Shown piece by piece: positions 3,781 to 43,406 of a DNA stretch of 64,000 nucleotides. Below the pieces are notes generated by a model. The model did not search any database. It was not told the origin of the DNA and saw only the letters and a program-made list of their open reading frames with translations. The DNA lies in assembly GCA_009380075.1 (NCBI GenBank), contig WHSO01000006.1, positions 13,930 through 77,929 of the forward strand, written 5' to 3'. A program made the position numbers and the translations under genes. Every line of letters begins with the position of its first letter. Position 1 is the stretch's first letter. The DNA comes from Alphaproteobacteria bacterium. Its GTDB lineage: Bacteria > Pseudomonadota > Alphaproteobacteria > SMXQ01.

Positions 3781-4413
3781 CCGAATAGCAGGCCTATCTG
3801 AACATTGTGCCCTCGGCGGTGCGGTCGCCAAAAACGCCGAGGATGACAGTTCTCAAATACGTTTCCGCCAGTCTGGCCGGGATGACCGTAACGCTAGCTG
3901 TTCAGGCAGGACTGCGGCCCATTGGCGGCCCGTCGAGCGCCCGTAGAAAATGGCTTCAGAACCTCGCGCACGTCTGCCTCGCGCCGCCGCCCGCCGCCTT
4001 GGCCGGCGGGATCATGGGTCCGACAATCGCCCGTTCCGCCTCGTTCCGGTCATTCGGATAGCGCAGGCCGCGTTGGTCGGCCGCCTTAACGATGCTCCGG
4101 CCGTCACGTCGGGTACCCGTTTTTCCCCGATTCAGGTGTTACATAGGAAATCTCTAGTGATTCTAATAACTTAATAACTTCGTGGGTCGGCTCTCACTTT
4201 GCCGGTTCCACTCGCCCATGGCAACTGCACCACCCCGCAAAGGTGCCACAATACTTCCGTGGCGGCGCGTAACACAGCGCATTTTAACTTGCCATAAGCC
4301 AATGCTTCGGCATACTGAATCGCGCTTCCGAATTCTGGCAGCGGGTTTTCCGTCGCGCCCCAAAAGGTTTTTTTGGGGCCTTGTCGTGGGGATACACAGT
4401 GATCGAGGGTGAT

Positions 4414-5799
4414 ATGGGACGGTCGGGCGCATTTCGTTTGGGGGGACGCAGTGAGTTTGGGGCAACGCTTTCCATTGCGGTGCTTTTGGCGGCTTGGGGC
4501 GTTCCGCTCGCGCCGGCCTACGGCAATGATGGGACCGACGGCGTCCAGGTATCGGAGGGGCCGCAGCCGCCCGAGCAGGTGGCCCAGGCCGCGATCGAGG
4601 TGCCTTCGCGCATCACCACGGTGCCGCGCGGCCAGACCGTCGAGGAGCGCCGCCGTCCGGATCTCGATCCCCTTGGCGTCCAGGTCGGCACGTTCACGCT
4701 CTTGCCATCCATCGGCCTGGAAGAGCAGTACAACGACAATATTTTCGCCACCGAAAACAATACCATCGACGATTTCATCACCCGCCTCCTGCCGCGGGCC
4801 AGGCTTCGTTCGAACTGGAACAATCACAGCCTCTCGGTTTACGGCAATGCCGACATCGGGCGCTATGCCGATAACGGCAACGAGGATTACGAGGACTACA
4901 CGGCGGGGGCGAACGGCCGGCTTACCATCCTCCGCGACACCTGGCTGCAAGCCCAGGTCGAACATCAGCGACGGCACGAGGACCGCGGTTCGCCCGATGA
5001 TGTCGGTGGTATCGAGCCGACAATCTACGGCGCTACGCTCGGCCAGTTGACCGGGTTTCACCGCCTGAACCGCCTGAACTTCACGTTGAGCGGCACGGTC
5101 GAGCGCCTCGATTTCGACGATGTTGCCACGGGCGGCGGCGGGATCATAAACAACGACGACCGCGACCGTTACGAAATGGAAACCTCTCTGCGGGTCGGCT
5201 ACGAAGTGGTCCCGAACTACGAGGCCTTCGTCCGCGGCGGCTACCTGAAGCGCACCTACGACGATATCTCAGACAACGGGCTTGACCGGGACAACAACGG
5301 CTACGAAATCGTGGCCGGCATCTCGGTCGATTTCGGCGGCATCACCTTCGGCGATTTCTTCGCCGGCTACCGGACGCAGGAATATGACGATCCCGCGTTG
5401 GATAGCGTCAGCGGCCCGTCCGTCGGTGGCGAAATCACCTGGAACGTGACGCCGCTCACGACCATCATCGGCACCCTGAGCCGGACGATTGAGGAATCGA
5501 CCAACGGCGACGGCATGGGCAATTTCGCCTCGGGCCGGTTCCTGACCGCCGCCGGGGTCAGCGCCCAGCACGAATTGCGGCGCAACCTGCTCCTGGGGGC
5601 GAACATCGGCTACCAAAACGACGATTACGAAGGAATTTCCCGGACCGATGAGACCTTCCGGTTCGGTGTCAACGCCAATTACATGATGTATCGCAACCTG
5701 TATATTCGCGGCGGCTACACCGTGCGGTCCAGAGATGCGGAAATTGGTACGGACTATGTCGAAAACGTCGTCTTCGTGCGGTTGCAGGCTCAGTATTGA
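4414..5799 (+). CDS. Exopolysaccharide-associated outer-membrane beta-barrel (BBP2/VpsM-like)
   Basis: Signal peptide, YNDNIF motif, alternating beta-strands, C-terminal aromatic residue (LQAQY); lies upstream of OPX and Wzc; start codon uncertain. Confidence 0.85.
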   Translation: MGRSGAFRLGGRSEFGATLSIAVLLAAWGVPLAPAYGNDGTDGVQVSEGPQPPEQVAQAAIEVPSRITTVPRGQTVEERRRPDLDPLGVQVGTFTLLPSIGLEEQYNDNIFATENNTIDDFITRLLPRARLRSNWNNHSLSVYGNADIGRYADNGNEDYEDYTAGANGRLTILRDTWLQAQVEHQRRHEDRGSPDDVGGIEPTIYGATLGQLTGFHRLNRLNFTLSGTVERLDFDDVATGGGGIINNDDRDRYEMETSLRVGYEVVPNYEAFVRGGYLKRTYDDISDNGLDRDNNGYEIVAGISVDFGGITFGDFFAGYRTQEYDDPALDSVSGPSVGGEITWNVTPLTTIIGTLSRTIEESTNGDGMGNFASGRFLTAAGVSAQHELRRNLLLGANIGYQNDDYEGISRTDETFRFGVNANYMMYRNLYIRGGYTVRSRDAEIGTDYVENVVFVRLQAQY

Positions 5800-37782: not shown

Positions 37783-40044
<2,262 letters not shown>

Positions 40045-40155
40045 ACATTGTCAATGGGAACGGACCGATGCGGAGATGGGCGCGATGCCTGTGTTCCGCG
40101 GACCCCGGCGATGGGGATGAAAATCCCTTTCGGGTCTGTGCTATAAGCGGCCCGG

Positions 40156-40232
40156 GCGCCCGTAGCTCAGCCGGATAGAGCACAGGATTCCTAATCCTGG
40201 GGTCGTGGGTTCGAATCCCGCCGGGCGCGCCA
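40156..40232 (+). tRNA. tRNA-Arg (anticodon CCT)
   Basis: Acceptor stem GCGCCCG/CGGGCGC, D arm AGCTCAGCCGGATAGAGC, anticodon arm CAGGA-TTCCTAA-TCCTG, T loop GTTCGAATC, encoded CCA. Confidence 0.97.
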
Positions 40233-40489
40233 TCATCCCGATTGGACGAACGCCATCGTTTCCCGATTTTTTAAGCTTGATGTGAGGGGACACTTAGTAT
40301 GGACTCTCGGGGGACCCGGCGGTTAGGGGTGGATAAGGGCAAATAACGGCGGCTGGCTGCGGTGTCCAGGGCAGCGGGGCGCGCACTGCGAATCGTTCTT
40401 AAGCGCCAGTTGCGCGACGACGGCGCCACATAAAATGGAGTCGCCGGGAATCGGCGGAAGCGGCGCAGGCTGGGCGAGTCGGGAAAATG

Positions 40490-40626
40490 GACGACTCAAT
40501 ATTCACACCATTAAAGAGTCGTTACGACTCTTTAATCGACGAACGACTCTAAATTCAAGAAAGCGCAGAAAACCGCGCCGACTGGTGAGGTCGGCGCGGT
40601 TTTGAGTAACGGAATATTGAGTCGTC
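40490..40626. repeat. Nested inverted-repeat element
   Basis: Perfect 15-bp outer IR GACGACTCAATATTC (40490-40504 and 40612-40626) enclosing a 13-bp palindrome (40510-40536) and a 14-bp hairpin (40569-40603). Confidence 0.9.
40569..40603. terminator. Probable bidirectional terminator hairpin
   Basis: AAAACCGCGCCGAC-TGGTGAG-GTCGGCGCGGTTTT, about 50 bp past the stop of the leftward repressor operon. Confidence 0.6.
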
Positions 40627-40652
40627 GATGCCCGATTAAACGGGCCTTGTCA

Positions 40653-41018
40653 TCAGGGGCGGGCGCGCCACGCCGCGATCCGCACCAGCTGCTCGATCTG
40701 GCAGCCTTCGCCGTGCGGCACCATCAGATTCACGATGACGTTGTTATCCCCAATGACGACGGTGGCCCGCGCGCCGCCGACGGCGGGCGAGCGCGCCCCG
40801 GCGCCCGGGCCCCCTTCGCCGTCTTGCCCTGGCTTCTGTTCGCCCGGCACCAGGTCATCGAGCAGTGCCTGCATGCGGGTTCGCCTCACATCCAGAGATT
40901 CAGCCATAGTGCCCCCACTGCCTTGCGGCTCGGCCGGTTGAACTTCTCCCACGGTGTCAGGGTCGCTCCCGCGAATTAACAGTTCGTAAACGAGCCGCAG
41001 ACTCAGGGGTGCCGCCAT
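40653..41018 (-). CDS. Hypothetical protein downstream of the repressor (phage immunity region-like)
   Basis: GGAG RBS just after the repressor stop; contains a VVIGDNNVIV segment; alternative start at 40907. Confidence 0.55.
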   Translation of the reverse strand: MAAPLSLRLVYELLIRGSDPDTVGEVQPAEPQGSGGTMAESLDVRRTRMQALLDDLVPGEQKPGQDGEGGPGAGARSPAVGGARATVVIGDNNVIVNLMVPHGEGCQIEQLVRIAAWRARP

Positions 41019-41029
41019 GTCGATGGCTC

Positions 41030-41530
41030 CTATTCCAGGGCGTCCAGGAGTTCGAGCAGCCGGGCCGCGGAATCGGCCTTAGCCTGGCCGCCGGCGGGGG
41101 GCTCCAGCAGCTCGGCGTAAAGATGGGCGATCCAGAGGGCCTTTCTCTCCGGGGTCATCGTCCGGCCGACCTTGGACAAATGCCCCTCAAGCATCCCGAT
41201 CGCGTTCACCAGGACGCCGTGGTCAACGGAATTGGCGCCCCGTCCGGCTGCAGCGCGCTCGGCCTGGGCCGCGCTCAGCGTGCCGCCCATCAGCTCGAAA
41301 GCCGCCAGCGCCTTGGCGTCGTCCGTATCCTTCAGCCGCTGCCATAGGAGCGGGAAGAGGGGTTCCCCCGTCACAGCCGAGAGACGTGCCAAAAAATCAA
41401 CGTCGGGGGTGCTCTCCCCGCGCTCGTACATACCCAGGGTATTGGGGTGAATGCCCACATCAGGCGCGAAGTCTTTGATCGACTTGCCGGTTTTAGTACG
41501 TGCCTCGCGGATGAGGTCGCCCAAGGTCAT
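41030..41530 (-). CDS. XRE/Cro-CI family HTH repressor
   Basis: LGDLIREAR..SIKDFAPDVGIHPNTLGMYERGESTPDVDFL; no S24 peptidase domain apparent. Confidence 0.9.
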   Translation of the reverse strand: MTLGDLIREARTKTGKSIKDFAPDVGIHPNTLGMYERGESTPDVDFLARLSAVTGEPLFPLLWQRLKDTDDAKALAAFELMGGTLSAAQAERAAAGRGANSVDHGVLVNAIGMLEGHLSKVGRTMTPERKALWIAHLYAELLEPPAGGQAKADSAARLLELLDALE

Positions 41531-41553
41531 GTGCTGTTAACCTCGTTCTTGTG

Positions 41554-41583
41554 TTGACTCGATACAAAGACTTGGGTTATCAT
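41554..41583 (+). promoter_or_regulatory. Sigma70-type promoter for the ner-like gene, probably leaderless
   Basis: TTGACT-N18-TATCAT with the ATG 7 nt downstream; the -35 box overlaps a GACTC site. Confidence 0.6.
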
Positions 41584-41590
41584 CCGCTCC

Positions 41591-41914
41591 ATGCAAATTA
41601 ACACCTTAATCAATGACATCCCAAAAAAGCCCGCCCTACGGCGGGAGTGGATCAAGTACCAGTTCCGCCTGCGCGGCTATTCGGTGCACGCATTCGCGGA
41701 GAGCATCGGCGTCCGGCCCCCGGCGGTCTCGAACGCCTTCTGGAAGCCTTCGAGCCACATCCAGCAGGAGATAGCCGACTTCCTGGGCATCCCGCCGGGG
41801 GTGCTGTTCCCGGAGTTCTACACCGACGACGGCCGCCTGATCCCAGGGACGAAACCTCGCAACCGTAGCCGCAAGCCGACGAAGAGTCACCGTTCAAAAG
41901 GACGGGCGGCATGA
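41591..41914 (+). CDS. Ner/Nlp-like DNA-binding protein (Mu-like phage Cro analogue)
   Basis: WIKYQFRLRGYSVHAFAESIGV..AVSNAF..IADFLGIPPGVLFPEFY; divergent from the repressor. Confidence 0.85.
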   Translation: MQINTLINDIPKKPALRREWIKYQFRLRGYSVHAFAESIGVRPPAVSNAFWKPSSHIQQEIADFLGIPPGVLFPEFYTDDGRLIPGTKPRNRSRKPTKSHRSKGRAA

Positions 41915-42081
41915 ACACGGCGGCGGCCTTCCTTGACACTCTTCGCCGGGGAGCAGCGACCCCGGCAAGGCCCTGCGCGGCGGGCGTGTGCCGCGCACGC
42001 TTACCTGCCCAAAAATCCATGGGCGGTTCCTCTCCGACACTTGAACCCCCGATCCGGCTGAGGGAAGGGGGGTTCGCCTGA
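41911..42081 (+). CDS. Short ORF (56 aa) coupled to the ner-like gene, possibly a phage remnant
   Basis: ATGA overlap with the ner stop; MNTAAAFLDTLRRG..GGFA; no recognisable domain. Confidence 0.35.
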   Translation: MNTAAAFLDTLRRGAATPARPCAAGVCRARLPAQKSMGGSSPTLEPPIRLREGGFA

Positions 42082-42153
42082 AATAAGCAGGAATACCCCC
42101 AAGGCGCCCGCAGCGGGCACGGCAGATATCGTCGGAAGTCGGATTAGCGGCGT

Positions 42154-43152
42154 TCAGGTCTTCGCCACCCGGCTCCCGTTGCGGCGGTGCCACGCCACGG
42201 CGGTCGTGACGATCGTGTCGATATCCGACATCTCCGGCTGCCAGCCCAGCTCGCGCCGTGCTTTCGATGCGTCGGCAATGAGCATGGGCGGGTCCCCGGC
42301 GCGGCGCGGGCCGATCCGGAAGGGCCGCTCCGATCCGCAGGCGCGGGCGACGGCGGCGGCGATCTCGAGCACCGTGGTGCCTTGTCCGGTGCCGAGGTTG
42401 AAGGCATGAAAGCCCGACCGGCCGAGGATCCATTCTCCAGCCAGAACATGGGCCCGCGCCAGGTCATCGACATGGATGTAATCGCGCACCGCACTGCCGT
42501 CGCGGGTATCGAAATCGTTGCCGAAGACGGTGAACGGCTGGTTGTCCGACAGCGCGCCGGCGATGGCGAGCGGAATGGCATGGGTTTCGGGCTCGTGGCA
42601 TTCGCCGATGTCGCCCTCGGCGTCGCAGCCCGCGGCGTTGAAGTAGCGCAGCGCCACGCTGGCGAGTCCGTAGGCCGGCGCGAAGTCCGCGAGCATGCGT
42701 TCGATCACGAGCTTCGACCAGCCGTAGGGATTGACCGGCCATTGCGGATGGTGCTCTCCGATCGGGATGTGCTTGGGAACGCCGTAGGTCGCGCAGGTGC
42801 TTGAGAAGATGAGCTTGGAGACGCCGCCCGCCCGCATGCGCTCCAGCAAGGTGAAGGTGCCGAGGCAGTTGTTGCGGTAATAGAGCTCGGGCTCCTTGAC
42901 CGATTCCTCCACATAGGCGAAGGCCGCAAAATGCGCGACGAGGTCGGGCTTGTAGGCGGCAAGCGCCGCATCCACGGCGGCGGCGTCGGCGATATCGCCG
43001 TCGACCAGCGGTCCCCACTTCACCGCCTCGGCATGCCCGCGCGACAGGTTGTCGAAGGTCACGACTTTCCACCCGGCACGCGCGAAGGCCTTGCAGCAAT
43101 GCGACCCGACATAGCCGGCACCGCCCGTCACCAGGATCGTTCGCTCGCTCAC
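42154..43152 (-). CDS. galE: UDP-glucose 4-epimerase
   Basis: VTGGAGYVGSH, FSSTCATYG, NPYGWSK, LRYFNAAG and RDYIHVDDLA. Confidence 0.95.
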   Translation of the reverse strand: MSERTILVTGGAGYVGSHCCKAFARAGWKVVTFDNLSRGHAEAVKWGPLVDGDIADAAAVDAALAAYKPDLVAHFAAFAYVEESVKEPELYYRNNCLGTFTLLERMRAGGVSKLIFSSTCATYGVPKHIPIGEHHPQWPVNPYGWSKLVIERMLADFAPAYGLASVALRYFNAAGCDAEGDIGECHEPETHAIPLAIAGALSDNQPFTVFGNDFDTRDGSAVRDYIHVDDLARAHVLAGEWILGRSGFHAFNLGTGQGTTVLEIAAAVARACGSERPFRIGPRRAGDPPMLIADASKARRELGWQPEMSDIDTIVTTAVAWHRRNGSRVAKT

Positions 43153-43406
43153 GCCGGTATCCTGCCCTTCTCCATCCGTTGCCGGAAACAGCCGATCGTC
43201 TTCCGCCGGCTGTCCTCCGGCTTCCCGAAACCGCTATAACCCGTATCCCTGCCGGGCACAACGAAGACCCGGGGCCCTTCATTTGGACCGCGGGCGTGCA
43301 GTGTATCCCGGCTGCTGTTGGTCGAGGGAACCGGACGAACGTTAGTATCGCATCATTGAGCTTTTCTTAACGGCGGGACACGCGCGCAGGTTGTCAGAGG
43401 GGCGAG

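What the first reader, a model, noticed from the sequence alone, without database searches (positions are those of the whole stretch)
40490..40626. 137-bp nested inverted-repeat element beside tRNA-Arg
Seen: a perfect 15-bp outer IR encloses the perfect palindrome ATTAAAGAGTCGT-T-ACGACTCTTTAAT and a perfect 14-bp GC hairpin. The motif ACGACTC followed by five A/T bases occurs five times in mixed orientation (about 40491, 40511, 40524, 40543 and 40614). As a single strand it would fold into a closing stem with two internal hairpins. Inference: an operator or transposase-binding array, a recombination/cruciform site, a MITE, or a structured ncRNA. It does not match any element I recognise.
Basis: partly seen in the sequence, partly recalled or inferred. 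Interest (0 to 1): 0.7.

Follow-up and report, generated by a model that had tools for sequence, protein, structure and literature searches.

The report
Box array in decayed Mu-like prophage
The 137-bp nested repeat is real and sits just inside the left end of a broken Mu-like transposable prophage, where it most likely combines the terminator of the repressor operon with a now-orphaned array of transposase-recognition boxes that each carry a host DNA-methylation site.

Summary
The element is not a stand-alone oddity beside tRNA-Arg. It lies 207 bp inside the 5'-TG left end (40283) of a truncated Mu-like prophage, directly 3' of the leftward XRE-repressor operon. The transposase genes have been deleted. 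The GC hairpin has the form of a bidirectional intrinsic terminator. A related intact prophage in a congener has, at the same position, a non-homologous element with the same syntax: box+, box-, box+, hairpin, box-. About half of the distant relatives of its transposase carry single-site box arrays, often right after the repressor gene. Most of the transposases examined have the N-terminal Mu DNA-binding domain, and box sequence follows that domain, not the repressor. My best reading (about 0.4) is a Mu-enhancer-like transposase-binding array wrapped around a terminator, now a relic. Unexpectedly, every box contains GANTC, the CcrM methylation site. With the conserved end, this is the densest GANTC cluster in the genome. 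The binding protein, any role of methylation and the pairwise-perfect nesting remain unproven.

The parts
40156..40232 (+). tRNA-Arg(CCT). This is host flank; the prophage end lies 50 bp downstream.
   Evidence: ARAGORN and Rfam tRNA at 69 bits. Congeners have the methyltransferase gene (window 43407..) directly after this tRNA.
40283..40489 (+). Left-end (attL-like) segment of a Mu-like transposable prophage. It starts with 5'-TG (TGAGGGGACA). It holds candidate end-binding direct repeats (about 40294-40306, 40432-40444, 40484-40496), a 10-bp-periodic triple repeat (40323-40352) and 5 GANTC sites.
   Evidence: Homology to the intact prophage G003:C40 starts exactly at TGAGGGGACA and stops at 40489. 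A 30-mer at 40387-40416 is identical in both. GANTC: 5 observed against about 0.6 expected. That the repeats bind transposase is inferred.
40491..40503 (+). Box 1, ACGACTCAATATT. It is the left arm of the 15-bp outer IR (40490-40504) and contains GACTC (GANTC).
40510..40522 (-). Box 2, ACGACTCTTTAAT on the minus strand. It is the left half of the 27-bp palindrome and contains GANTC.
40524..40536 (+). Box 3, ACGACTCTTTAAT. It is the right half of the 27-bp palindrome and contains GANTC.
40543..40555 (+). Box 4, ACGACTCTAAATT. It is unpaired (86% complementary to box 5) and contains GANTC.
   Evidence: (I6).
40569..40603 (.). Bidirectional intrinsic-terminator-like hairpin: A4, a 10-bp GC core, a 7-nt loop, the GC core again, and T4. 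On the minus strand it is followed by TTTTCTGCGCTTTCTT; on the plus strand by TTTTGAGT.
   Evidence: (I2). The consensus scanner did not list it. I attribute this to the A4/T4 pairs being counted as stem, which is my reading of the sequence, not a tool result.
40613..40625 (-). Box 5, ACGACTCAATATT on the minus strand. It is the right arm of the outer IR (40612-40626) and contains GANTC.
40653..41018 (-). ORF121, an orphan open frame downstream of the repressor gene. It is uncertain whether it is a gene. Its stop codon lies 26 nt from box 5.
   Evidence: No Pfam, PHROG or NCBIfam family. The only match among 5.8 billion proteins is itself, called as 73 aa. Codon-position GC is ambiguous.
41030..41530 (-). 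XRE-type (HTH_3) repressor, 166 aa, transcribed leftward. It is an orphan.
   Evidence: Pfam HTH_3 6e-11. PHROG transcriptional repressors. No homologue other than itself. In 401 class genomes there were only N-terminal matches at 38% identity or less.
41549..41583 (+). Early promoter TTGACT-18-TATCAT (41554-41583), overlapped by a 19-bp imperfect palindrome TTGTGTTGACTCGATACAA (41549-41567). The palindrome is a candidate primary operator and has one GANTC at its centre.
   Evidence: The operator role is inferred from the sequence.
41591..41914 (+). Ner-like early regulator (HTH_35), 107 aa.
   Evidence: Pfam HTH_35 2e-10. phrog_769 1e-16.
41940..42000 (+). Last patch of homology to the G003 prophage, matching the region just before its CII-like gene. 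The prophage is truncated just after it.
   Evidence: 80% identity to L022:11626-11689. There is no MuA-like transposase anywhere in the 97%-complete genome and no PF02316 match (that search's controls did not ring either).

Best explanation
The 137-bp element is the innermost part of the left-end control region of a Mu-like transposable prophage that has lost everything to the right of its ner gene. It combines two things. (1) The GC hairpin is a bidirectional intrinsic terminator. It ends the leftward repressor transcript before it runs into the transposase-binding end, and it stops host read-through from tRNA-Arg. (2) The five 13-14-bp boxes, four on one side of the terminator and one on the other, are recognition sites for a phage protein. 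That protein is most likely the N-terminal Mu-type DNA-binding domain of the deleted MuA-like transposase. On this reading the array is the counterpart of the phage Mu transpositional enhancer (IAS/E element), which is two clusters of transposase sites separated by a spacer. Here it is detached from the operator because the repressor is XRE-type rather than Mu c-type. In this genome the array is a relic without its protein. Each box also contains a CcrM methylation site, so binding may have depended on methylation state.

Shown: the position inside a Mu-like left end; the terminator-like anatomy; the uniqueness of the boxes; the same syntax with different sequence in a related prophage; the recurrence of single-site arrays in relatives; and the GANTC enrichment.

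Inferred: that the boxes bind protein; that the protein is the transposase; that the array enhances transposition; and any role of methylation.
For: Context. The homology to the intact prophage in G003 begins at 5'-TGAGGGGACA (40283) in both genomes, next to different tRNAs. That prophage encodes a CI/S24 repressor, a CII-like protein, a MuA-like transposase (phrog_310 2e-98) and a MuB-like protein. Congeners lack window 40233-43406.

Same syntax, different words. G003 has GATTCCYTTTT-type boxes in the order + - + hairpin -, starting at the same alignment column and abutting the repressor stop codon. It folds into the same closing stem with two hairpins.

Not operators. No box-like site is found in the repressor/ner region. 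The G003 operator region has CTATAG palindromes, not its boxes.

One-sided. The boxes cluster at one place only in G000, G003, two cyanobacterial genomes and three viral records.

Recurrence. An array (an 8-mer in at least 4 copies within 220 bp) lies within 3.2 kb upstream of the transposase match in 28 of 56 distinct metagenome and viral loci and in 10 of 34 genome loci. In 7 of 14 loci examined, the array lies within 60 bp of the stop codon of a leftward HTH_3/HTH_31 gene. Several have the form boxes, then a roughly 55-bp spacer with a hairpin, then boxes.

Binder. Of the 10 transposases scanned, 7 have an N-terminal PF02316 'Mu DNA-binding domain' above the Pfam cut-off, and 2, including G003, match it weakly. 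L203, L170 and L139 share the box AACTCGGACG. The L203 repressor is unrelated to the other two, while the N-terminal domains are 45-62% identical. In the close pairs L191/L203 (catalytic core 88% identical) and L139/L180 (77%), the N-terminal 95 residues are only 62% and 52% identical, and the boxes differ.

Literature. [quoted passage not shown]
Against: The cognate transposase is gone, so nothing links these particular boxes to it. The G003 transposase matches PF02316 only weakly (E 0.0067, below the cut-off).

The arrays in relatives are mostly tandem direct repeats with a TCGGA core, and any likeness to ACGACTC is loose.

The pairwise-perfect nesting is better explained by selection for base pairing than by protein recognition alone. 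Boxes 1 and 5 are identical over 15 nt, and boxes 2 and 3 over 13 nt, while the A/T tails differ between the two pairs. The G003 array shows the same pattern.

Homology between the two prophages resumes after ner (41940-42000). That would suggest similar transposase genes behind differing arrays, if the homology continued, which cannot be seen.

The link between boxes and N-terminal domain rests on 9 loci without phylogenetic control. Same-box and different-box pairs differ little in N-terminal identity (about 54% against 48%).

No IHF-like site is apparent in the spacer.

Viral records and MAGs are incomplete, so 'one-sided' is not proven.
Confidence: 0.4

Rival explanations
1. The array is a distal operator. 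The boxes are bound by a regulator of the swapped immunity module (the XRE repressor, the Ner-like protein or ORF121). Binding might loop the DNA to the early promoter about 1 kb away, or block transposase access to the adjacent end.
For: The array, the repressor and the ner/cro gene are exchanged together between the two prophages, while both flanks are conserved. Boxes 2 and 3 form a classic dimer-type palindrome. In relatives the arrays hug the repressor gene.
Against: No box-like site lies in the repressor/ner control region; the best hit there ranks 88th or 189th in the window. The G003 operator region carries a different motif. Relatives with unrelated repressors share the same box. Three of the five boxes are isolated half-sites.
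Confidence: 0.15
2. The element acts as RNA, as a 3'-UTR device of the leftward repressor operon. Transcripts that stop at the inner terminator are protected by its hairpin. Read-through transcripts form the 15-bp closing stem and are cleaved, as in RNase III retroregulation at lambda sib (recalled).
For: The nested perfect pairing covaries between pairs, and the same architecture is kept with unrelated sequence in G003. The structure starts 26 nt after the ORF121 stop codon in the window and 2 nt after the repressor stop codon in G003. In G003 the minus strand folds better than the plus strand (-44.0 against -36.6 kcal/mol).
Against: A purely structural role does not explain why both stems use the same 7-mer, or why that word holds GANTC in both phages. 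In relatives the equivalent arrays are tandem direct repeats that cannot pair. There is no Rfam family. No expression data exist.
Confidence: 0.12
3. The array is a methylation-gated packaging (pac) site bound by the small terminase. This would be analogous to the P1 pac site with its Dam-site hexamers flanking the cut region (recalled) and to Mu pac near the left end (recalled).
For: The array is one-sided, lies near the left end, and consists of short boxes in two groups, each with a methylation site.
Against: In relatives the array can lie 900 bp or more from the record end, with genes beyond it (L191, L170). A conserved 10-bp-periodic triple repeat between the first two end repeats (40323-40352) sits where I recall that Mu keeps pac; one search shows two direct repeats at Mu 32-69. 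The terminase genes are missing here.
Confidence: 0.07
4. The boxes bind host factors at a CcrM-site cluster. Candidates are methylation-reading or AT-tract-binding proteins of Alphaproteobacteria (GcrA, MucR, CtrA). They would silence the prophage end or time its activity.
For: The two unrelated box families share only GANTC followed by an A/T run. The host has a CcrM orthologue. TTAA-N7-TTAC occurs on both strands of the palindrome (sequence).
Against: Only boxes 1 and 5 fit the extended GcrA motif as I recall it. The G003 array has no TTAA-N7-TTAA. Box tails are conserved beyond what an AT-tract reader needs. No tool result bears on binding.
Confidence: 0.06
5. The element is a MITE or other small mobile element with 15-bp terminal inverted repeats that landed in the prophage.
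For: It is 137 bp long, has perfect 15-bp terminal IRs and folds as a hairpin.
Against: It is single-copy in the genome. It is absent from 30 other genomes of the family, from the phage collection and from relatives. There is no clear target duplication. The sequence after it shows no homology to the G003 'empty' position. G003 has a different element of the same syntax at the same place.
Confidence: 0.03

Closest known systems
Phage Mu transpositional enhancer (IAS / E element, overlapping operators O1-O2)
   Same: It is a single internal site on the left side of the genome, near the repressor gene. It consists of two clusters of short asymmetric transposase-recognition boxes separated by a spacer (passages of PMC3145075). 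The transposases of the relatives carry the same N-terminal Pfam domain, PF02316.
   Different: Here the array lies 3' of the repressor operon, 207 bp from the end, not between the repressor and ner genes about 1 kb in. It does not overlap the operator. The repressor is XRE-type and shares no domain with the transposase (for G003). The spacer holds a terminator hairpin, and no IHF-like site is apparent in it. The boxes carry GANTC. Function is untested.
MuA end-binding sites L1-L3 of Mu and of D3112-like phages
   Same: The element lies next to a 5'-TG end with imperfect direct repeats. [quoted passage not shown] The likely equivalents here lie in 40283-40496.
   Different: The five boxes lie beyond these repeats and have a different sequence. 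They are swapped between two phages that keep the end segment. In G003 no second cluster is found at another place.
Dam-controlled transposon ends and phage sites (IS10/Tn10, Tn5, P1 pac, Mu mom); recalled, not from any call
   Same: Host orphan-methylase sites are embedded in the protein-recognition sequences of a mobile element.
   Different: The methylase here would be CcrM (GANTC) of Alphaproteobacteria. Two literature searches found no transposable phage or transposon described with this. The effect of methylation is untested.
Lambda tI/sib retroregulator (recalled)
   Same: A terminator hairpin is nested in a longer stem that can form only in read-through RNA, placed at the distal end of an operon near a prophage end.
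   Different: There is no evidence of RNase III processing. The stems reuse one DNA word that is also a methylation site.
MITEs and REP-like palindromic elements
   Same: Similar size, terminal inverted repeats and a strong hairpin fold.
   Different: The element is single-copy, shows no target duplication, and is position-specific within a prophage family.

Membership tests
Left end of a Mu-like transposable prophage | The element boundary starts with 5'-TG, and homology between independent insertions begins exactly there. | tested here: met
   The window and G003 share sequence from TGAGGGGACA onward, behind different tRNAs.
Left end of a Mu-like transposable prophage | A leftward repressor gene and a rightward ner/cro-type gene lie next to the end. 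| tested here: met
   XRE repressor (-) 41030-41530 and Ner-like HTH_35 (+) 41591-41914. RS1, D3112 and Mu have the same layout.
Left end of a Mu-like transposable prophage | MuA-type DDE transposase and MuB-type ATPase genes lie downstream. | tested here: not met
   They are present in the G003 relative but absent from the window and from the whole 97%-complete genome. The window copy is therefore a truncated remnant.
Left end of a Mu-like transposable prophage | A right end with inverted end repeats, and a 5-bp target duplication. | not testable with these tools
   The right part is deleted in the window. The right end was not found in the G003 assembly.
Mu-type transpositional enhancer (IAS) | Clusters of boxes separated by a spacer, present once per genome. 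| tested here: met
   Four boxes, a 55-bp spacer and one box. All 5 genome matches lie here.
Mu-type transpositional enhancer (IAS) | Bound by the N-terminal domain of the transposase. | not testable with these tools
   The cognate transposase is deleted. In relatives, 7 of 10 transposases have PF02316 above the cut-off, and boxes follow that domain rather than the repressor. This is indirect.
Mu-type transpositional enhancer (IAS) | Coincides with the repressor operators. | tested here: not met
   No box lies in 41531-41590. I therefore say it works like an enhancer, not that it is the Mu IAS.
Mu-type transpositional enhancer (IAS) | Stimulates transposition in cis. | not testable with these tools
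   This needs an assay in an intact relative.
Intrinsic (rho-independent) terminator | A GC-rich stem-loop followed by a T tract. | tested here: inconclusive
   The sequence shows a 10-bp GC core flanked by A4 and T4, with 5 T in the next 8 nt on each strand. The consensus scanner did not list it. There are no transcript data.
MITE | Many copies with terminal IRs and target-site duplications. | tested here: not met
   There is one copy in the genome and none in 30 family genomes. No clear duplication is seen (sequence).
Known RNA family (Rfam 15) | A match to a covariance model. | tested here: not met
   Only the tRNA matched in 39000-42000 at E up to 1.
CcrM-site regulatory cluster | Local excess of GANTC in a host that encodes CcrM. 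| tested here: met
   Ten sites in 360 bp make this the top cluster of the genome; the next has 7. 0 of 20000 shuffles reach 10. The CcrM orthologue matches NF050803 at 2e-184, and the match to PDB 6pbd (E 3.6e-162) covers residues 12-359 of 381.
CcrM-site regulatory cluster | The methylation state changes protein binding or activity. | not testable with these tools
   This needs methylome data and binding assays.

The most novel reading that the evidence does not exclude
The array is a CcrM-gated transposition switch. All five boxes, three of the four non-homologous boxes in the related phage, and four positionally conserved sites in the shared end segment carry GANTC. One of those four sites has changed its middle base while keeping the motif. 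On this reading, the transposase (or whatever reads the boxes) distinguishes a fully methylated resting prophage from hemimethylated or unmethylated, freshly replicated copies. That would be the alphaproteobacterial counterpart of Dam control of IS10 and Tn5, and the first case for a transposable phage. Two further features may characterise the lineage: dedicated enhancer arrays detached from the operator, and insertion 41-50 bp behind tRNA genes.
Probability: 0.15. Interest if true: 0.75.

Novelty: new variant of a known kind. Interest (0 to 1): 0.5.

Why it matters
The oddity itself is explained: it belongs to a decayed Mu-like prophage, not to the tRNA, and it is not a new mobile element or RNA. 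Three by-products could matter to people who study transposable phages.

First, many non-Mu transposable phages seem to carry a dedicated, single-site box array next to the repressor gene. This array may be their transpositional enhancer, an element characterised, as far as I recall, only in Mu and D108.

Second, in an alphaproteobacterial lineage these boxes and the conserved end are saturated with CcrM sites. This suggests cell-cycle or replication gating of transposition, which is directly testable with methylome data and binding assays.

Third, two independent insertions of this lineage sit 41-50 bp behind tRNA genes, which hints at target choice in a family known for near-random insertion.

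Tried and rejected
- Rfam over 39000-42000 at E up to 1 gave only the tRNA and a sub-threshold hit antisense to it. Rfam on the RS1 ends gave nothing.
- Copy number. A search of the own genome found only the element itself plus short chance pieces. In 41 related genomes only the tRNA matched, apart from the G003 patch. Of 31 family genomes, 2 matched: the genome itself and G003.
- Collections. Exact 25-mer and 21-mer probes from the conserved end found 0 hits in viral and metagenome contigs. The XRE protein found 0 relatives in viral contigs. The phage collection gave no DNA match.
- Protein homologues. XRE and ORF121 match only themselves.
- Right end of the G003 prophage. It was not found with the terminal 10-mer or with the left-end DNA. 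One extra exact GATTCCCTTTT lies inside a coding region and is a chance hit.
- Shared domain between the G003 repressor and transposase (the Mu situation): none.
- RS1/RC1. Box 1 looks by eye like their terminal repeats (ACGAC..AATATT..CACC), but BLAST finds no significant similarity. I do not count it as evidence. Comparing RS1 with RC1 places their true left end at TGTAGCG, 113 bp from a tRNA fragment in RS1 and inside a coding region in RC1. The tRNA proximity therefore does not extend to them.
- tRNA next to the transposase relatives: found in 1 of 34 loci, which is G003's own.
- GANTC cluster to the left of the transposase in the other 33 genome loci: none.
- MITE test by looking for resumed homology after the element: not significant at the expected place.
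- Promoter inside the element: none by the scanner, and by eye only poor hexamers.
- Sequencing runs: no RNA holder is listed.
- PF02316 in the own genome: no match, but the control genomes did not ring either, so the result is weak.
Full report
**1.

- a perfect 15-bp outer inverted repeat at 40490-40504 and 40612-40626, extending to 18 nt at 94%;
- a perfect 13-1-13 palindrome at 40510-40536;
- a perfect 14-bp stem at 40569-40582 and 40590-40603 with a 7-nt loop.

The box ACGACTCWWWWWT occurs five times, at 40491+, 40510-40522-, 40524+, 40543+ and 40613-40625-. Only 0.36 matches are expected in the 64-kb window, and 0 of 100 shuffles reached five. All 5 matches to ACGACTCWWWAWT in the 3.54-Mb genome lie here.

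With up to three mismatches the window has 27 matches against 32 expected. The motif is therefore not a diffuse feature. The only extra nearby site is a degenerate one at 40432-40444(-).

Either strand folds into a closing stem with two hairpins, with z about -9 and 0 of 200 shuffles folding as well.

**2. What the locus is.**

The gene order is:
- katG (-) at 37783-40002;
- tRNA-Arg(CCT) at 40156-40232;
- the element;
- an orphan frame (ORF121, -);
- an XRE/HTH_3 repressor (-) at 41030-41530;
- a sigma-70-like promoter, TTGACT-18-TATCAT;
- a Ner-like HTH_35 gene (+) at 41591-41914;
- unrelated metabolic genes.

Two congeners have the methyltransferase gene (window 43407..) directly after tRNA-Arg. 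Window 40233-43406 is therefore extra DNA.

A search of 41 related genomes matched only the tRNA, except for one 113-bp patch at 80% identity in G003 contig C40. That contig carries, behind tRNA-Ser(CGA):
- a CI/S24 repressor (-);
- a small (+) gene;
- a CII-like gene;
- a MuA-like transposase (rve plus Mu-transpos_C; phrog_310 2e-98);
- a MuB-like ATPase.

This is the left arm of a Mu-like transposable prophage.

The two loci become alignable exactly at TGAGGGGACA (window 40283; 50 bp after tRNA-Arg, and 41 bp after tRNA-Ser in G003). They stay alignable up to window 40489, including an identical 30-mer. Homology reappears for 60 bp after ner (41940-42000) and then stops.

The window's genome has no MuA-like transposase. 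The window therefore holds a 1.7-kb remnant of such a prophage: a 5'-TG left end, the immunity genes and ner.

The transposase family is that of D3112/B3-like, Ralstonia, Rhodobacter and Pseudoalteromonas transposable phages (153 phage records, all below 60% identity). RS1, D3112 and Mu have the same left-arm layout.

**3. Where the element sits in that anatomy.**

It starts 207 bp inside the end, right where the conserved end segment stops. It ends 26 nt before the stop codon of the last leftward frame.

The conserved 207 bp contain imperfect direct repeats:
- TTAGTATGGACTC at 40294-40306, which matches the second such site of G003 in 12 of 13 positions;
- AAAATGGA at 40432 and 40484.

Their spacing resembles the L1-L3 sites described for D3112-like phages at 10, 93 and 124 bp (passages of PMC4378225). 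I take these, not the five boxes, to be the end-binding sites. This is an inference.

The GC hairpin has an A4 run before it and a T4 run after it, with 5 T in the next 8 nt on either strand. That is the form of a bidirectional intrinsic terminator. It would close the leftward repressor operon and block read-through from the tRNA. The simple scanner did not list it. I attribute this to the A/T pairs being absorbed into the stem. No transcript data exist; no RNA holder is listed.

**4. Same syntax, different words.**

At the same alignment column, G003 has an unrelated sequence with the same grammar:
- GATTCCTTTTT (+);
- AAAAGGGAAC (-), four bases, then GATTCCCTTTT (+);
- a small hairpin;
- AAAAAGGAATC (-), abutting the repressor stop codon.

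Several features match those of the window element:
- The orientations are the same.
- The distance from the first box to the inner dyad is about 30-32 bp in both.
- The outer pair is identical within itself, and the inner pair matches within itself apart from a one-base gap, while the two pairs differ from each other.
- It folds into the same Y shape, though less strikingly (z -2.7 and -2.1).

In G003 the box also clusters at that place only: 3 of 4 exact genome matches are there. The fourth is inside a coding region, and no second cluster appears with one mismatch.

**5. Who reads the boxes?**

They are not the primary operator:
- A weight matrix of the five boxes finds nothing in the repressor/ner control region. 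The best hit there ranks 88th or 189th in the window.
- That region has its own 19-bp imperfect palindrome over the -35 hexamer.
- G003's control region carries CTATAG palindromes, not its boxes.

The element is not a MITE. It is single-copy and absent elsewhere, and homology does not resume after it. No Rfam family matches. The XRE protein and ORF121 have no homologues at all. Phages with the same immunity module could therefore not be found.

**6. Survey of the transposase's relatives.**

No close relative exists in 185,000 species genomes, the metagenome contigs or IMG/VR; the best hits are 45-47% identical. The distant ones are still informative.

The survey criterion was an 8-mer in at least 4 non-overlapping copies within 220 bp, lying within 3.2 kb upstream of the transposase match. 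It was met in:
- 10 of 34 genome loci (two are the same phage, and one looks like a coding low-complexity repeat);
- 28 of 56 distinct metagenome and viral loci, which partly overlap the first set.

I looked at 14 loci in detail:
- In 7 (L191, L203, L170, L180, L139, L064, L058), the array lies 0-56 bp beyond the stop codon of a leftward HTH_3/HTH_31 gene, as in the window and G003.
- In L116 it lies in the divergent control region.
- In L118 and L130 it lies just before the transposase gene.
- In L053 and L054 it lies about 840 bp past the repressor gene.
- In L057 and L084 it lies next to unassigned leftward frames.

L191 and L203 show three or two boxes, a 55-bp spacer with an 8-bp-stem hairpin, and then seven or six boxes. 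That is the window's plan.

The box clusters at one place only in all five relatives tested: two genomes and three viral records of 71-87% estimated completeness.

Many box cores share TCGGA, for example AACTCGGACG, GAATCGGATCG, TTTCGGACTT and AAGTCGGAACT.

Ten transposases were scanned. Seven have an N-terminal PF02316 'Mu DNA-binding domain' above the Pfam cut-off. Two, including G003, match it weakly, and one does not match.

From memory, PF02316 is the domain that MuA and the Mu repressor use on the operator/enhancer. A review (passages read, PMC3145075) describes the Mu E element. [quoted passage not shown]

Box sequence follows the transposase N-terminus rather than the repressor:
- L203, L170 and L139 share one box. 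The L203 repressor is unrelated to the other two, while the N-terminal domains are 45-62% identical.
- In L191/L203 the catalytic cores are 88% identical and the N-terminal 95 residues 62%, and the boxes differ.
- In L139/L180 the cores are 77% identical and the N-terminal residues 52%, and the boxes differ.

This is suggestive, not a controlled test. Same-box and different-box pairs differ little on average.

**7. The methylation-site surprise.**

ACGACTC contains GACTC, which is GANTC, the site of the cell-cycle methyltransferase CcrM of Alphaproteobacteria. G003's record title calls it an alphaproteobacterial MAG.

The window's genome encodes a CcrM orthologue. It matches NCBIfam NF050803 at 2e-184 (612 bits, below that model's strict cut-off of 830). 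It matches PDB 6pbd at 3.6e-162 over residues 12-359 of its 381.

GANTC is under-represented in the genome, with 8405 sites and observed/expected 0.75. Yet 40302-40619 holds ten. That is the densest 360-bp cluster of the whole genome (the next has 7) and ties for the densest 140-bp cluster.

The excess is present separately in two parts:
- the conserved end segment: 5 sites against about 0.6 expected, reached by 6 of 20000 shuffles;
- the element: 5 sites against 0.5-1.0 expected.

G003's unrelated boxes contain GATTC in 3 of 4 cases. Its left end has 7 GANTC in 185 bp, against 2.4 per kb on the contig.

Four end-segment sites are conserved in position between the two phages. One has changed its middle base while staying GANTC.

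None of the other 33 genome loci shows such a cluster to the left of the transposase. Two full-text searches found no paper linking GANTC to Mu-like ends or to transposase control by hemimethylation (listings and passages only).

**8. Most likely mechanism.**

The element is a composite of two parts. One is a terminator that insulates the transposase-binding end from the repressor transcript and from the tRNA. The other is an array of transposase-recognition boxes wrapped around it, working like the Mu enhancer. The array is detached from the operator because the repressor is XRE-type. In this genome it is a relic, because the transposase is gone. The GANTC content suggests that box recognition, and perhaps end recognition, depended on CcrM methylation state.

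The lists of what is shown and what is inferred are given under the best explanation. I put the enhancer-like reading at about 0.4.

**9. What does not fit.**

The pairwise-perfect nesting looks like selection for base pairing. Boxes 1 and 5 are identical over 15 nt, and boxes 2 and 3 over 13 nt, with tails that differ between the pairs. G003 shows the same pattern. This keeps an RNA-level reading alive: a terminator nested in a read-through-only stem. That reading, however, does not explain why both stems reuse one methylation-site-bearing word. It also does not explain why relatives use tandem direct repeats.

The distal-operator, pac-site and host-factor readings cannot be excluded without binding data.

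**10. Standing relative to what is known.**

Membership of 'Mu-like prophage left end' is met on the features that can be tested, but the copy is truncated. 'Works like the Mu enhancer' is a functional analogy. It fails the defining feature of coinciding with the operator, so I do not file the element as the Mu IAS. The CcrM-site saturation and the detached, repressor-adjacent arrays are, as far as my searches go, undescribed. I rate the finding a new variant of a known kind.

Noticed in passing
window 40233-40283; L021:2860-2901 (G003:C40): Two independent insertions of this prophage lineage lie 50 bp and 41 bp downstream of tRNA genes: tRNA-Arg(CCT) here and tRNA-Ser(CGA) in G003. Both have the left end facing the tRNA 3' end. 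In the window the insertion point is 6 bp after the T run that follows the tRNA. For a family known for near-random insertion, this hints at target preference. No tRNA was found in the 33 other transposase-relative loci, and RS1/RC1 do not share the pattern.
   Followed up: partly
G000:C109:5593-5670 (outside the window): The second densest GANTC cluster of the genome, with 7 sites in 78 bp. It lies in an AT-rich stretch immediately upstream of a leftward gene start. It is a candidate CcrM/GcrA-type regulated promoter.
   Followed up: no
window 40323-40352: A 10-bp-periodic triple repeat (TTAGGGGTGG / ATAAGGGCAA / ATAACGGCGG) lies between the first and second candidate end repeats and is conserved in G003. 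Mu has two direct repeats at the equivalent place (32-69), where I recall its pac site maps. This is a possible pac or HU-bending site.
   Followed up: no
window 41549-41567: A 19-bp imperfect palindrome, TTGTGTTGACTCGATACAA, with 7 of 9 pairs. It overlaps the -35 hexamer of the ner promoter and has a single GANTC at its dyad. It is the likely primary operator of the XRE repressor.
   Followed up: partly
window 40233-43406: The whole stretch is absent from two congeners, which have tRNA-Arg followed directly by the methyltransferase gene. Besides the prophage remnant it contains an NAD-dependent epimerase gene (42154-43152, -) of unclear origin.
   Followed up: partly
L191:901-1068, L203:3159-3298, L053:3907-4175, L170:3210-3464, L180:2544-2663 and others: Distant relatives carry up to 14 tandem 11-12-bp boxes, often in two blocks around a roughly 55-bp spacer, right after the repressor gene. 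Many share a TCGGA core. Some boxes contain GATC or GANTC (for example GAATCGGATCG in L130 and L133, and AAGATCGGCATTC in L057), so host-methylase sites in such boxes may be more general.
   Followed up: partly
L107:1-300 and L211 (RS1 and RC1 records): The RS1 record includes host flank with the 3' part of a tRNA-like sequence (about 130-180), which ARAGORN and Rfam do not call. Comparison with RC1 places the true phage left end at TGTAGCGCGACGG (RS1 about 293), with two 18-bp direct repeats, CGACGRAAAYATTGCACC, at +8 and +30.
   Followed up: partly
window 4357-4494: Four copies of GCCCCAA/TTGGGGC in mixed orientation lie within 140 bp. This was seen only in the k-mer cluster scan.
   Followed up: no
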